From contig NC_043000.1 of NCBI RefSeq assembly GCF_006345805.1, forward strand, positions 117,614,001 to 117,678,000: a DNA stretch of 64,000 bases, given 5' to 3'. The position numbers and the translations under genes are program-made. Below are positions 7,170 to 59,883 of the stretch, in pieces (position 1 is the first letter of the stretch; each line of letters opens with the position of its first letter). Source of the DNA: Octopus sinensis (lineage: Eukaryota). The notes below the pieces were generated by a model that saw nothing but the letters and a program-made list of their open reading frames with translations, was not told the DNA's origin and ran no database searches.

Positions 7170-7219
<50 letters not shown>

Positions 7220-7247
7220 CACTCTCTCACCTTAGCGTTTTTCAGCC

Positions 7248-7309
7248 GGATAACTGAAGAGATGGTGGCGTGGATTTCCACCTCAGCATCCGAAAATCGG
7301 AGTTTTACC
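7248..7309 (+). ncRNA. Hammerhead-like motif (slightly degenerate) in a ~120-bp insert between (TA)n tracts
   Basis: UAA-CUGAAGA-GAUG...CAUC(C)-GAAA-AUCGGAG-UU-UUA; one stem III mismatch and one extra base in stem II. Confidence 0.5.
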
Positions 7310-7335
7310 ATGGCTACCGAATAATTGTCACATAT

Positions 7336-7381
<46 letters not shown>

Positions 7382-8102
7382 GATAGATAGATAGATAGAT
7401 AGATAGACGTCTATACATATATATAGATATATATGAATATATATATATATATGTGTGTGTGTGTGTATTTATAAGAAATAATTAAAATTCAGTTGAATTA
7501 GGTACTTAAGTTGAGGCTCCAAGTCAGTCCAATATTATCCACACAGCTTGAGGTAGGGTGAATACACTAATACTTTGACATCCTTGTTACTTATTTGTTT
7601 TATATATATATATATATATATATGCATATATTTATGTGTGGGTGCATGTAATAGAAAAGAATTTAAAATTTAATTGTGAAATAAAATGGGTCAGTTTTGG
7701 GTTAGGAAATTTTATGCGCACAAAGCTTCTGTTGTTTACACACGGATCTTTCTTCGTAATGAAAACCAGTCATATATTTATCCAACATATTGTATATGAT
7801 TTCCATATATATATATTTATATATAAGCAGGATGTGTTCTTATTTTTATCACACACACACCTACAGTCACAGAGCAAGCTTAAATGTTTGCTTTATGTAA
7901 ACATCCATGTAAGTTTACTTCATGTTTCTACTTGTCTTATCACTGTTTAAGCCTCCAATTAATTATTTTTATTGTTGAGGTTTGCACTGTTATGCAAATT
8001 ACAATTATGAATTTCTACTAGTTCCTATGTCCCCAAGAACAGTTACATAGAAAATAATAGTAGTATGTGTGTGCACATATATATAATGTATATATGTGTG
8101 TA

Positions 8103-8138
<36 letters not shown>

Positions 8139-8671
8139 AGTGACAAGCAAAATCTGTAAAAAGACTTTCTTCCTGATAACTTAGTAGCTTCTAAGTGGAA
8201 GGAAGGGCAACAGTGTTCTTTGTCTATCTCTTTAACTTCTTGGAGATTTTAGGCAAAATTATACTAATGAGTCCATCTGTTGTAATTTAATTAAATTCTG
8301 TGTCTTTGTGCAGCTGATGATTGCTCTGCATTTAAATTAATGTAGTGATTGCATTGTTCAATTAAATGGAGTTGCATGAAACGATCATACTACATTACCT
8401 CAGGATATACTTGTTGCTTATTTTGATATATATATATATATATATAATATATATATATATATAAACATATATTGCCAGTATGGAAGGTGGATGTTAAACA
8501 ATGATGCTGATAATATATAGATGCTCTTTATTTACTAGTTTTTTCCAGATATTTTTTATGGTCAATTTTGAACACCAGTTGTTATATTGCTCAAGCATAA
8601 AATGATGTCAAAATTATTTTTCCCTTGAAAACCAAAGCATTTAGTGTTCTCCCTTAAAGATAATATTCTCT

Positions 8672-8712
<41 letters not shown>

Positions 8713-55730: not shown

Positions 55731-55991
55731 ATAAGATAAAAAAATATATCCTGGCATTACGTATACAACAATAGAACTCACTGACCACGAGGATTACGAT
55801 AAATCACTATCGTCGGACTACAATGCCATTCCACCTTGATAAGGGTCAGTGAACTGTTCTTTCTTATTAACATTCCTAAGCAATTTCCCTGCTTGGTAGA
55901 TTTTTCCTGCCAACGACGGGACTTTTTACTGATCTATAAAAGCAAAATATTAAAGCTGCGCTGTTTAATATTGGAAATATTTTATTGTCAA

Positions 55992-56355
55992 CTAGCACTA
56001 TGACCCGGCAACGCCGGGTCATAGTGCTAGTGCATGCATATACAGCTGCGTGCGTGCACACATACACGCGAGTACTGTCCAAATCTCCGACTAATCACAT
56101 ACAGCTAGCTGGCATTCATTTGGCGTATCAAGTTTCGGGCATTTTGATTGGGTTTTGGATAGAAAATTCACAAAAAAGTTACTTCTATTGATTTTTTAAT
56201 GGCTTTGCGGGATGACTGGAGAACTGTAAAGATGTGCACGACCACCTTTCAACGGTTTTGAATGACCATAGAAAGTGCGAGTCCTCTAACTGAAAAATTG
56301 TGGATTTGTATAAAGGACACACACACAGACATTTTGCCGTTTATATATATAGAGA
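55992..56355 (-). mobile_element. Non-autonomous Helitron (family H2, shares its 5' end with H1)
   Basis: Minus-strand 5' end TCTCTATATATATAAACGGCA resembles H1. 3' end is a hairpin plus CTAG. A|T target site. Confidence 0.8.
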
Positions 56356-56540
56356 TAATATTTGCATACTGAAAAACTAAAGAAAAGTAACGCAACTCTC
56401 TCTTTCTCCCCTTTTGGGTAAATTATGTTAATGTTGACTGGTATATCTGCGCAGATTAAAGTTACGGCCATCTTCAAGATGTTTACTCGAAGTATTGCAG
56501 TTTCATATGTCTGCGGAACTCGAAATCTCATAATTGACCT

Positions 56541-56800
56541 TATGTTGATAAGGATTGGCCCCAGAGACTAACCACGAACCCTGGTTATTTTAATATTAAA
56601 CATATTTCACTGTTACCCGCCAAAAATATCATCCGTCTTTCATTATACATTAAACCTTTCCAAGCATCTCATCAAAGCTCTAGGTAAAGATGGGCCAGAG
56701 TTCTCTTCTCGATATAAACTGTTCATTTTTTTTATATTAAAGTCGAGGAAGGTATCTTCGTCATTGCTCAAATACATAAAATGATTGAAAAATGATTCTC
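56541..56800 (+). mobile_element. Degenerate Chapaev3/CMC-like DNA transposase fragment
   Basis: Collinear motifs DKDWPQR...LYIK...LIKALGKDG...KVEEGIFVIAQIHKM resemble the recalled KDWP.R/LHIKLG/VKALDK.G/KEGIFVGPQIR signature. Confidence 0.55.
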
Positions 56801-57329
56801 CGTGTTTGCTTCCTCAGTCTTTAAACAAGATTTCTCTCAAAACTTTTGCAAGGAAATTTCGCTCGTCAGACAAAATGTTTTATAGGATATCTTCTGACAC
56901 TAGGTTCTGAGTTTAAATACCTCCGAAGTTAGTTTTTACTTTTCCTCCCTTTGGCGGTCGATGAAATTGACTTGTCCCTGCACCACAAATTTGCGGTCTT
57001 TGAACCCTACAACGGACCAGTGTCCCGTTCAGAGGTATGTCGTAGCTTCGGTCATTTATACTCCATGGAAATCGGGTAGTCAGCTTTATGAATCCCAAGG
57101 TTCGGGAGAGAAAAAAAGAAGAGTGAAATATGCTAAGTTAAACTGATAAAATATGTACCATAGCAACACATTGACCTGGAATATTAAAACTAAATTTTCA
57201 TTTAATTTTAAGAAAAATAATTGAGGAGAAACTGAGTGTTGTAAATACTCTAAACACTGACCATGTGACTTTGAGCGACAAGCCAATTGCAAACGTTAGC
57301 GAATTTAATTATCGAGGCACGAAAATAAC

Positions 57330-57765
57330 AATGGATGAAGATTTATTCATGAAATAAATTCAAGAATTAGCAAACCAATCATTCGGTATGTTAAATTCAA
57401 TAGGGAAACCATCAATACTCGACAAGAGCACCAAAATACGATTTTACAAAAGCGATATATTTAGCATCCTCCTCTTTGGATCTGAATGTTGGAAAACAGC
57501 CAAAAGTATTGAAAAGGTGGTATTTCAAAATAAATGTTTATGAAAAATTGTGAAGGTCTACTTGCCGAATATGATCTCGAGTAGTCAACTACACACCAAG
57601 GCTAACGTGAGATTAATAAGAGAATCTATTGAAGTAAGGAGATGGAAATGGCTGGGTCGAGTTTGTCGCTATAAACCGAACTCACTTGTCAGGATCGCTT
57701 TGCAATAGGTTCCACAAGGCAAAAGGAGATGAGGCCGACGAAAGGAAACGTTGATGAAAACATAA
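57330..57765 (+). mobile_element. Degenerate LINE ORF2 C-terminal fragment (RTE-like)
   Basis: KIRFYKSDIFSILLFGSECWK...RRWKWLGRVCR...QGKRR*GRRKET, with stops and frameshifts. Confidence 0.78.
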
Positions 57766-58240
57766 CCTCCTTCCTTGCTGGAGGTAATAAGTTTGCCAGT
57801 GCTAAAATCACAACTGAGAAGAGATTTTATACTCTAGTCCACAAACAATGCACCAGAGAAAGAAATCTAAAGGATAAAACAAACATTAATTTACAACGTA
57901 TATTTTAGCAGACTTGGCTAAAGAAGAATACGGATACATGTACAACCAATACACCCAGGAGTACATCCAATAAAAACTCACAAATCATACAATATTTATA
58001 TGCTTAACAACTATTGAACCGTCACAAAACGGAATACGAAGTGCATCACATCCAACCATAAAACTAAAACTAAAGATATATTATAAAAAACATAAAAATA
58101 ACTACTGGGGGCTATTTGCTCGACTGAACCCTTCAAGGCAGTACCCCAGTGTGGTCGCAGTCCAATGACTGAAAAAAGTAAATGTGGAGAAATGGTATGA
58201 CCAGAAAATATATTTCTATTATTATTTATGATAGTACTAA

Positions 58241-58850
58241 GGCGGTGAGCTGGCAGAATCGTTAGCACGCTGGGCGAAATGCTTAGCGGTAGTTCGTATG
58301 CCGCTACGTTCTGAGTTCAAATTCCGCCGAGGTCAACTTTGCCTTTCATCCTTTCGGGGTCGATTAAATAAGTACCGGTTACGCACTGAGATCGATATAA
58401 TCGACTTAATCCGTTTGTCTGTCCTTGTTTGTCTCCTCTGTGTTTAGCCCCTTGTTGGTAGTAAAGAAATAGGTATTTCGTCTGCCGCTACATTCTGAGT
58501 TCAAATTCCGCCGAGGTCGAATTTGCCCTTCATCCATCGGCTGATGAAATAAGTACCAGTTACGCACTTAATCCCTTCCCTCAAATTTGAGGCCTTGTGC
58601 TTCCAGTAGAAAGGATGATTTATGATAGTACTAAGGTGGTGAGCTGGCAGAATCGTCAGCACGCCGGACAAAATGCATAGGGGCATTTCCTCCGCCTTTA
58701 CAGTCCGAGTTCAAATTCCGCCGCCGAGATTGACTTTGTCTTTTATCCTTCAGGATCGATAAATTAGTTATCATTTGAATACTTGGGTTACAGTAATCGA
58801 TTTACACTCTCCCCTGAAATTGCTGGCTTCATGCCAAAATTTGAAAGCAT
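58241..58850 (+). mobile_element. Two tandem family A SINEs (58241-58616 and 58635-58850)
   Basis: Two heads (GGCGGTGAGCTGG, GGTGGTGAGCTGG), separated and flanked by ATTTATRATAGTACTA. Confidence 0.88.
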
Positions 58851-59883
58851 TATTTATAATAGTACTATTGGTTAAATTAAAAACCACCAAACCCTCACTA
58901 TAAACTTAGATACGTTTCGACCAAATATTGGTCCAGGCCATGTCTAACTTAATAGCACCACCTGATATGATTATCTAAATCCTGTTTAAGTCAAATTTTG
59001 TTTATGGTCCATTCAAGTAGTGAGTTTTTGTTGGGTGAGTTGTATCCAATTATGGGTGGCTTATCTGGTATTCCTTGAAGGAATCCAGACTCCGTTTAAA
59101 GTTGATGGGATCATTTTCCTCTTTGATTTTCTTTCGGGACAATGTTAAATAGGGCAGGGCCTGTTGAGGAAAAGAAATTATGTTGCACTATATACTACTA
59201 TACTATACTATGAACACTACCATTCTATACTGTAGCTATTTTTCTTTCCGGTTCAAAATGATGCCTCCATACCTTAATAAATGAGACGTCTTTCGGACTA
59301 AAAAAAAATGAGAAGAAAAATGCGAAAAAAAAAGATAAGAAAAATAGGTGGATTATTATAAAGGGATAAAATAATTAACCTATTAAGATTCTTATCAAAT
59401 AATATAATATTTCCAACATACATCTGCTAGTGAGAATTTAGAGAAATTACTCGTTCAGGTGTGATTAAACGTTGCAGAGATAAAAAAAAAAGGTGAAAGA
59501 AAGAGCAGACGACATGAAGGGTAAGAAGAAGAAGAAAGCCATTGGCTATATCAAAAGTTAAATAGTTTCGTGTAATTAACTCCCTACGGCAATATATTCC
59601 ACAATTATAATGTTTTCAGTACCGCCGGTGGGAGAAAGTTTGACTGACGAAGAAAAGAAAAGAAAAGTAAAGAAGAGAGAAGAAGAAAGAAAGAAAAAAA
59701 ACTACCATTTCAACTATTGTTTATTAAACAGTGACAGCAACAACAGCAACAACATCGGCAACAACAACTAAATGCCAGCTAATTACATAGAGAAATTATT
59801 ATCTCGCTGAGGCAGGTTAAAAGTCTTGCGTTCTCTATTTGTTGCTTTCTGCATTTTGGTCTCATCTCTTCTCCATTTATTAA

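What the first reader, a model, noticed from the sequence alone, without database searches (positions are those of the whole stretch)
7219..58947. Many unrelated mini-elements carrying minimal hammerhead ribozyme motifs, mostly beside (TA)n tracts
Seen: hammerhead-type cores (CUGANGA...GAAA...UH with short, near-palindromic stem III) occur in elements with different sequences at 7248(+), 16878(-), 17282(+), 18494(-), 45340(-), 45651(+), ~53320/53371 and ~58906(-). Most abut (TA)n tracts, several contain inverted repeats, and none encodes protein. Known: minimal type-I hammerheads with palindromic stem III mark Penelope-like element pseudo-LTRs and non-autonomous retrozymes, and cleave as dimers. 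Inference: this genome hosts a diverse set of non-coding, ribozyme-bearing retro-elements that target TA microsatellites. They may be poorly catalogued in cephalopods, and they place ribozyme motifs inside host introns.
Basis: partly seen in the sequence, partly recalled or inferred. Interest (0 to 1): 0.75.

Follow-up and report, generated by a model that had tools for sequence, protein, structure and literature searches.

The report
Penelope retroelement stubs, one tRNA-headed

Summary
Partly confirmed. Six of eight sites (7248, 16878, 17282, 18494, 45340, 45651), plus a missed one at 8314, are copies of five high-copy families with a type-I minimal hammerhead layout and self-complementary helix III. 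They are not a non-coding class: each family was traced to a Penelope-like (PLE) GIY-YIG/RT ORF, in sense for four and only through inversions for one. They are truncated pseudo-LTR stubs, a known arrangement (PMC4209133, PMC11167929). Site 58906 is the 3' stem-loop of a coding LINE; 53320/53371 is single-copy DNA. Only one window copy passes a strict descriptor. TA targeting is strong in three families and absent in family B. Two additions: families D and F carry a U4C core; family B has a tRNA-like A/B-box segment between one ORF's stop and the next ORF's start, 15 of 24 copies that reach it begin there, and its ORF majority has no TTTT run. This points to Pol III transcription, untested. 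The scan noted the tRNA-headed family before on other DNA.

The parts
7219..7338 (+). Family C stub between two (TA)n tracts; hammerhead core at 7254, helix I 5 bp in the family, long helix II, helix III self-complementary with one central mismatch
   Evidence: family joined to RT-thumb/Cys-linker/GIY-YIG ORF in L341, L342 (sense) and L336 (inverted)
8136..8427 (+).
16774..16925 (-). Family D stub; core at 16911 reads CCAACGA (family CCGACGA, U4C); 3-bp helix II with GGAA loop
   Evidence: GIY-YIG ORF upstream in sense in 18 of 25 loci
16923..16966 (+). Short inverted arm of the family D insertion, flanked by (TA)n
17262..17418 (+). Family F stub; core at 17286 decayed and GAAA deleted; family core CCGATGA (U4C), helix III a perfect 8-nt palindrome
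   Evidence: F lies downstream in sense in 13 of 30 endonuclease loci
18432..18600 (-). Subfamily A' stub; core at 18572; the only listed copy that passes the strict descriptor; antisense to the host gene
45292..45530 (-). Family B inverted arm: truncated tRNA-like segment (about 45465-45530), (AAT)n, start of the ORF with hammerhead core at 45377 (UH site lost)
45533..45778 (+). Family B sense arm: end of the tRNA-like segment, (AAT)n, ORF start, hammerhead core at 45656 (GAAA to AAAA), tail
58900..59187 (-). Not a hammerhead: 3' end of a protein-coding non-LTR LINE (last codons of the RT ORF, 3' UTR stem-loop, short terminal repeat)
53315..53410 (.). Not an element: single-copy DNA with chance core-like words
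10641..10904 (+). Context: exon of the MITF/TFE-family host gene (further exons at about 35.5 kb, 36.6 kb and probably 38.9-39.2 kb)
   Evidence: (PF15951, E 4.2e-11)

Best explanation
Six of the eight listed sites, and one missed site, are truncated, decayed pseudo-LTR pieces of five families of protein-coding Penelope-like retroelements, each carrying a minimal type-I hammerhead motif predicted to cleave only as a dimer or with protein help. Shown here: the family structure, the motif, the links to GIY-YIG/RT ORFs (sense for B, C, D, F; through inversions only for A), fixed ends on the hammerhead side, ragged other ends, inverted arms, TA preference in A, C, D. Inferred from published PLE work: the element's protein nicks AT-rich DNA, starts reverse transcription at internal sites just past the hammerhead, and usually stops early, leaving thousands of short one- or two-armed stubs; the stubs are by-products, not independent non-coding elements. 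Family B adds a tRNA-like A/B-box segment between the stop of one ORF and the start of the next; it likely serves as a Pol III promoter (about 55%), so that transcripts starting there give the many copies that begin at that point. The remaining two sites are a LINE 3' stem-loop and single-copy DNA.
For: Own-genome searches give 134-2771 first-look candidates per family (not copy numbers) and 1 for 53285-53500. Full cores: A 28 of 30, A' 19 of 20, B 19 of 30, C 29 of 30, F 10 of 24; in A the free core position 7 varies (G16, A11, T2 of 30) while the rest is fixed. Helices differ in sequence between families but keep pairing; A versus A' shows a C-G to T-A change in helix I. Helix III does not fold as a monomer but self-duplexes at -7.4 to -11.1 kcal/mol in A, C, D, F and only -1.7 in B. 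ORF links: F 13 of 30, D 18 of 25, B head downstream of the ORF in 20 of 30 RT loci, three of them near-identical, and hammerhead running in frame into the ORF start in 2 of 30, C 3 of 25, A 2 loci by inversion. Inverted copies within 500 nt: A 11, B 17, C 15, D 26 of 30, F 7 of 25, LINE 0 of 25. PMC11167929 (parts 1-2 of 4 read): hammerhead at the ORF start, internal RT initiation, cleavage only with protein. PMC4209133 (parts 1-2 of 4 read): thousands of single minimal hammerheads per metazoan genome, ascribed to truncated PLEs.
Against: No cleavage or transcript start was measured. Copies examined are the best BLAST hits (at most 30 per search), so counts lean to young, query-like copies; the D query included its inverted arm, which inflates that count. 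For A no contiguous sense ORF was reached in two walks. Most D copies begin at nearly the same place just before the hammerhead, which a short self-amplifying subfamily could also produce. Clade labels rest on motifs, not on a tree. The window-level descriptor excess is modest.
Confidence: 0.86

Rival explanations
1. Some families (B, D above all) also amplify as separate non-autonomous lineages: a Penelope-mobilised tRNA SINE for B, a short 150-nt element for D.
For: 15 of 24 B copies that reach the tRNA-like start begin within -12..+6 of it, 10 of 16 among those without an inversion at the junction. Short copies far outnumber ORF-reaching ones (2605 versus 408 candidates). Most D copies start just before the hammerhead.
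Against: The same head, (AAT)n and hammerhead sit inside the coding element on both sides of the ORF; both B subfamilies seen have ORF-linked copies. No diagnostic difference between short and ORF-linked copies was sought or seen.
Confidence: 0.3
2. The tRNA-like segment of family B is a passive relic (an old SINE insertion); the pile-up of copy ends comes from reverse transcriptase stalling or folding back at a small hairpin at its start.
For: A 4-bp palindrome lies at the start and several copies fold back there. The segment scores only 15.7 bits on the Rfam tRNA model (cut-off 29), and ARAGORN finds nothing in 21 loci. With the element's own codon usage permuted, the lack of TTTT is not significant for the main ORF block (p 0.14).
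Against: The pile-up remains in copies without a junction inversion (10 of 16). A- and B-box-like motifs are kept in both subfamilies. The ORF majority has 0 TTTT runs in 574-650 codons versus 4.1-4.7 expected from the codon usage of three other elements (p 0.005-0.006), which themselves show 9, 5 and 3 runs.
Confidence: 0.35
3. They are non-coding retrozymes: tandem hammerhead units expressed as circular RNAs and copied by borrowed enzymes.
For: Type-I topology with palindromic helix III; retrozymes occur in molluscs (PMC7229834, passages).
Against: Copies are single or fold-back rather than head-to-tail arrays in the loci read; all five families tie to PLE ORFs.
Confidence: 0.04
4. The motifs are chance matches in AT-rich DNA.
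For: True for 53320/53371; the tolerant descriptor with 4-bp stems shows no excess.
Against: Five families keep the same core and pairing with different helix sequences.
Confidence: 0.02

Closest known systems
Minimal hammerheads (min-HHR) in pseudo-LTRs of metazoan Penelope-like elements (Cervera and De la Pena 2014, PMC4209133; parts 1-2 of 4 read)
   Same: Type-I layout, short helix I, long helix II, often an extra base after A9, palindromic helix III, thousands of single or opposite-strand motifs from truncated PLEs.
   Different: Families D and F carry C at position 4; that paper's core variant in the parts read is U3-A8. Family A begins helix II with a U-U or G-U pair.
PAc (Poseidon_Ac), Penelope/Poseidon PLE of Anolis (Frangieh et al. 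2024, PMC11167929; parts 1-2 of 4 read)
   Same: Family B: RT plus C-terminal GIY-YIG, hammerhead inside the first codons, insertions ending just past it, tandem ORF-pLTR-ORF order.
   Different: No tRNA-like segment is described for PAc in the parts read; family B has one directly before the start codon.
Neptune/Nematis-type PLEs (Craig et al. 2021, PMC8557442; passages)
   Same: A, C, D, F have a Cys-rich linker before a C-terminal GIY-YIG domain, inverted truncated arms and, for A, C, D, (TA)n targets.
   Different: Clade not tested by a tree; long untranslated stretch (about 1-1.2 kb in C, D, F) between endonuclease and hammerhead.
Schistosome Sm-alpha / Sj-alpha SINE-like repeats (seen second-hand in review PMC6765202, passages)
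   Same: Pol III promoter followed by a hammerhead.
   Different: Non-coding tandem repeats with no stated PLE partner; family B's unit is part of a coding element.
TRIMp3 elements Cassandra, Helenus, Ajax (Kojima 2024, PMC10886601; passages)
   Same: Small-RNA-derived Pol III promoter inside a terminal repeat.
   Different: Non-autonomous LTR elements under 1.3 kb; the author expects autonomous partners to need Pol II. Family B is a coding PLE.
U4C viroid hammerhead (Perreault et al. 2011, PMC3088659; passages)
   Same: Same core change as families D, F and F2.
   Different: There a rare variant with much reduced activity in vitro; here the majority state of whole families.

Membership tests
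PLE minimal type-I hammerhead | Conserved CUGANGA / GAAA / UH core | tested here: met
   A 28 of 30, A' 19 of 20, B 19 of 30, C 29 of 30
PLE minimal type-I hammerhead | U at core position 4 (families D, F) | tested here: not met
   D CCGACGA 21 of 29, none with T; F CCGATGA 9 of 24, F2 12 of 17, with T and A forms as expected from CpG decay: a core variant
PLE minimal type-I hammerhead | Helices I and II closed, helix III short and palindromic | tested here: met
   B has only 3-bp helix I and a 4-nt palindrome
PLE minimal type-I hammerhead | Compensatory changes | tested here: inconclusive
   One double change in helix I between A and A'; helices differ between families; no formal covariation test run
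PLE minimal type-I hammerhead | Self-cleavage as dimer or with protein | not testable with these tools
   needs in vitro assay
EN+ Penelope-like element | RT plus C-terminal GIY-YIG ORF joined to the hammerhead-bearing repeat | tested here: met
   B; C 67; D 90, 102; F 32 (PF01541 weak, E 0.027), 34; A only by inversion (71)
EN+ Penelope-like element | Truncated copies with inverted arms and partial tandems | tested here: met
EN+ Penelope-like element | RT phylogeny within a named PLE clade | not tested
   no reference set; clade labels from motifs as defined in PMC8557442 and from recalled motifs
Retrozyme (non-LTR) | Non-coding, short head-to-tail repeats | tested here: not met
   ORF links above; single or fold-back copies
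Retrozyme (non-LTR) | Circular RNA | not testable with these tools
   only contigs offered
tRNA-derived SINE (family B) | tRNA-related head with A and B boxes | tested here: met
   cloverleaf at relaxed ARAGORN score; full-length Rfam tRNA alignment below cut-off; 39-45 of 74 positions identical to 15 distinct genomic tRNAs, no clear parent
tRNA-derived SINE (family B) | Stand-alone non-coding element whose 5' end is the head | tested here: not met
   9 of 24 copies read through upstream, into the PLE ORF in the longer ones; the head is part of the coding element
tRNA-derived SINE (family B) | Pol III transcription | not testable with these tools
   indirect only:
Hammerhead (site 58906) | CUGANGA core | tested here: not met
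   23 of 25 copies read CATGGCC, 0 of 25 canonical
Non-LTR LINE (site 58906) | RT ORF running to a 3' UTR stem-loop and short terminal repeats, no inverted arms | tested here: met
   clade (CR1/L2 group) is recalled from motifs, not tested

The most novel reading that the evidence does not exclude
Family B is an autonomous, protein-coding Penelope retroelement transcribed end to end by RNA polymerase III from a tRNA-derived promoter in its pseudo-LTR: its 2-kb ORF has been purged of TTTT terminators, and the same promoter spawns SINE-like hammerhead stubs of its own tip.
Probability: 0.3. Interest if true: 0.8.

Novelty: new variant of a known kind. Interest (0 to 1): 0.5.

Why it matters
The finding as written is mostly known biology: minimal hammerheads left by truncated Penelope-like elements. 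What would matter is family B. Coding retroelements are expected to need Pol II; a Penelope element run from a tRNA-type promoter would raise the question of how an uncapped RNA is translated, and would show a direct route from a coding element to a SINE. The U4C core fixed in two families bears on the open question of whether PLE hammerheads must cleave at all: a change reported to lower activity in vitro has been kept across diverged subfamilies, and standard CUGANGA scans will miss these motifs.

Tried and rejected
Rfam scan of the window: no hammerhead in the 150 of 187 rows shown; microsatellite noise. The repeat finder was swamped by TA tracts. 'Family B is a stand-alone SINE': my first reading, dropped when upstream DNA proved to be a PLE ORF. 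An endonuclease seen antisense to family D in L112 was a 5' inversion, not an antisense hammerhead. Two upstream walks for family A did not reach a sense ORF. The regex counts for A, B, C, F were mis-anchored and are not used (replaced); its TA counts were replaced. In one search one locus (L279) had the wrong strand; corrected. A strict descriptor hit at 21400(+) was not followed up and is probably chance. Sequencing runs: no RNA holder listed, contigs only; laying four of them marked the host exon but cannot show starts, ends or cleavage. ARAGORN at default score: 0 genes in 21 loci. Lunse et al. (PLE hammerhead variants) is not held and was not read; it, and supplements of the papers cited (none opened), may list U4C or cephalopod examples. 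Paper searches that found no report of a tRNA-headed PLE: 0 papers; 1, listing only; 3 listed, none on this; passages of PMC6685494 read; 0; led to PMC13282606 (parts 1-2 of 3 read), which counts Penelope families in an octopus without mention of hammerheads in those parts. Repbase and Dfam could not be checked.
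Full report
Setting. The window is G000:C4:117614001-117678000 of a 2.72-Gb animal genome, 31.8% GC and rich in (TA)n. A MITF/TFE-family gene lies on the + strand: exon 10641-10904 (PF15951, E 4.2e-11; bounds from contigs), basic-helix exons at about 35.5 and 36.6 kb, and a probable last coding exon at 38.9-39.2 kb (recalled resemblance; Pfam gave no support).

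Observation. I read each site and searched the genome with each. Six listed sites belong to five repeat families: C (7254), D (16911), F (17286), A' (18572) and B (45377 and 45656, two arms of one insertion). A family-A copy at 8314 was missed. First-look candidates number 134-2771 per family (not copy numbers). The stretch 53285-53500 has one match, itself. Site 58906 is a repeat but not a hammerhead: 23 of 25 copies read CATGGCC at the core position, copies end in short tandem repeats, never show inverted arms (0 of 25) and run upstream into an RT ORF (PF00078, E 2.5e-28). It is a LINE 3' end whose stem-loop resembles half a hammerhead.

Chance. A strict descriptor finds 2 hits in the window versus 0.15 in 60 shuffles; one is 18572, the other (21400) is unlisted and not followed up. 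A CpG-decay-tolerant descriptor finds 5 versus 1.3, but only 1 versus 0.38 with 4-bp stems. Window copies are mostly broken: D has G5 changed, F has lost GAAA, both B arms are damaged, C and A have helix changes. The families are clear: full cores in A 28 of 30, A' 19 of 20, B 19 of 30, C 29 of 30, F 10 of 24. In A only position 7 varies widely. Non-CpG core columns are slightly more conserved than flanks (A 0.994/0.961, B 0.977/0.961, C 0.997/0.954, F 0.948/0.914), on few columns and best-hit copies. Helix sequences differ between families yet pair; A versus A' has one double change in helix I. Helix III does not fold within one molecule but self-duplexes (A -10.0, C -9.7, D -7.4, F -11.1, B -1.7 kcal/mol), fitting the dimer model of PMC4209133.

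What they are. Copies share one fixed end and vary at the other, and many have an inverted arm (A 11, B 17, C 15, D 26 of 30; F 7 of 25; D inflated by its query). Walking upstream reached PLE ORFs. F lies in sense downstream of a GIY-YIG-type domain in 13 of 30 loci; a sister subfamily F2, 54-61% identical in the endonuclease, keeps helices I and III with a different helix II (17 motifs in 40 loci). D: 18 of 25. C: two sense loci and one inverted of 25. A: only two loci, both through 5' inversions. A, C, D, F have a Cys-rich linker before the endonuclease, the mark of Neptune/Nematis types in PMC8557442; B lacks it and resembles Penelope/Poseidon (RT match weak, E 0.0011). TA at the fixed end: A 22 of 30, C 24 of 30, D 28 of 30, F 9 of 24, B 0 of 30, LINE 14 of 25, background 4.8-12.1%. 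The 'mini-elements' are therefore stubs of coding elements, as PMC4209133 proposed for other animals.

Mechanism. From PMC11167929 (Anolis element, in vitro): the protein nicks AT-rich DNA and starts reverse transcription at internal sites just inside the ORF start; the hammerhead overlaps the start codon region, cleaves only with protein, and is not needed for insertion in vitro. Family B matches this layout: in 2 of 30 RT loci the hammerhead runs in frame into the ORF N-terminus and in 20 of 30 the same module follows the ORF. I took the lead to that paper and to the 'first codons' test from earlier scan notes and checked it here. Applying the mechanism to these families is inference. Intronic effect is unlikely: the three sites shown to lie between host exons are antisense (16911, 18572) or lack GAAA (17286); the two sense copies with full cores (7254, 8314) have helix changes and no same-family partner on their strand in the window.

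Addition 1: U4C. Family D reads CCGACGA in 21 of 29 parsed copies (6 CCAACGA, none with T4); F and F2 read CCGATGA in 9 of 24 and 12 of 17, with T and A forms as expected from CpG decay. PMC3088659 describes U4C as a viroid variant with much lower activity in vitro. I found no report of it in PLEs (one search listed 2 papers), but the main paper on PLE hammerhead variants was not available.

Addition 2: family B. About 25 nt after the ORF stop comes a 74-nt tRNA-like segment with A- and B-box-like motifs, then (AAT)n, the start codon and the hammerhead. It folds as a cloverleaf only at a relaxed ARAGORN score, aligns full length to the Rfam tRNA model at 15.7 bits, below the cut-off of 29, and has no clear parent among 15 genomic tRNAs. 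Of 40 head-bearing copies scored (from 60 loci; copies whose B-box end missed my pattern and duplicates were dropped), 24 reach position +6; 15 of these begin within -12..+6 and 9 read through. The end rate in the ORF region is 0.0032 per nt (28 ends), which predicts about 6% over 19 nt; the rate inside the head (9 of 16 over 59 nt) predicts about 23% (my arithmetic). Without junction inversions the count is 10 of 16. The ORF majority has no TTTT run over 1892-2092 nt (3.2-3.8 expected by base shuffle); against the codon usage of three other elements 4.1-4.7 are expected (p 0.005-0.006), against its own usage 1.6-2.9 (p 0.14 and 0.02), while D, F2 and the LINE show 9, 5 and 3 runs. Single decayed copies vary (0-11 runs over spans that include flanks). 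The test was post hoc, prompted by earlier notes, and lacks a head-less Poseidon control. A small hairpin at the head's start offers a rival cause for the pile-up. I put a working Pol III promoter at about 55% and whole-element Pol III transcription at 30%.

Comparison. Closest known: PLE minimal hammerheads (PMC4209133) and PAc (PMC11167929). Pol III promoter plus hammerhead is known in schistosome repeats (second-hand, PMC6765202), and Pol III promoters inside terminal repeats are known in non-autonomous LTR elements (PMC10886601), whose author expects autonomous elements to need Pol II. Searches found no tRNA-headed coding PLE; repeat databases could not be checked. The scan has noted this family in this and other genomes; some notes call it a non-coding SINE, which my ORF links contradict.

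Verdict. Observation partly confirmed (6 of 8 sites); interpretation partly supported. The bulk is known biology; family B and the U4C cores are variants worth an experiment. Interest 0.5.

Noticed in passing
window 58900-58950 (-); L121-L145: The LINE's 3' UTR stem-loop is followed by GAAA, a short near-palindrome, UA and five bases that pair with the sequence before the stem: the 3' half of a type-I hammerhead without its 5' core, in nearly all 25 copies. Relic or coincidence.
   Followed up: partly
window 10641-10904, 35528, 36645, 38876-39160 (+): MITF/TFE-family host gene; exon at 10641-10904 with upstream exon(s) outside 1000-10640.
   Followed up: partly
L091-L120: Most family D copies begin within a few bases of one T-rich spot just before the hammerhead; a short subfamily, microhomology with (TA)n, or query bias.
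   Followed up: no
L177:1050-1500, L176, L171: Family F ORFs carry a long Asn/Thr-rich low-complexity stretch between RT and the Cys linker, apparently from an (AAT)-type microsatellite in frame.
   Followed up: no
L306, L313 (family A): The long untranslated region of family A holds an internal duplication of about 770 nt.
   Followed up: no
window 488-751 (+) and 33839-34102 (-): Two 90%-identical copies of another 264-nt repeat that contains CTGATGA followed at once by AAC; no hammerhead layout found.
   Followed up: no
   Followed up: no
window 62558-63151 (-): 196-codon frame with DUF6451 (E 5.2e-12); looks like the end of a LINE RT (recalled).
   Followed up: no
window 63448-63816, 58235-58534, 3631-4114: Tandem 184-nt units of a very abundant short repeat with a B-box-like motif.
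   Followed up: no
window 28080-28184 and 18189-18262: Isolated tail pieces of family A without the hammerhead.
   Followed up: no
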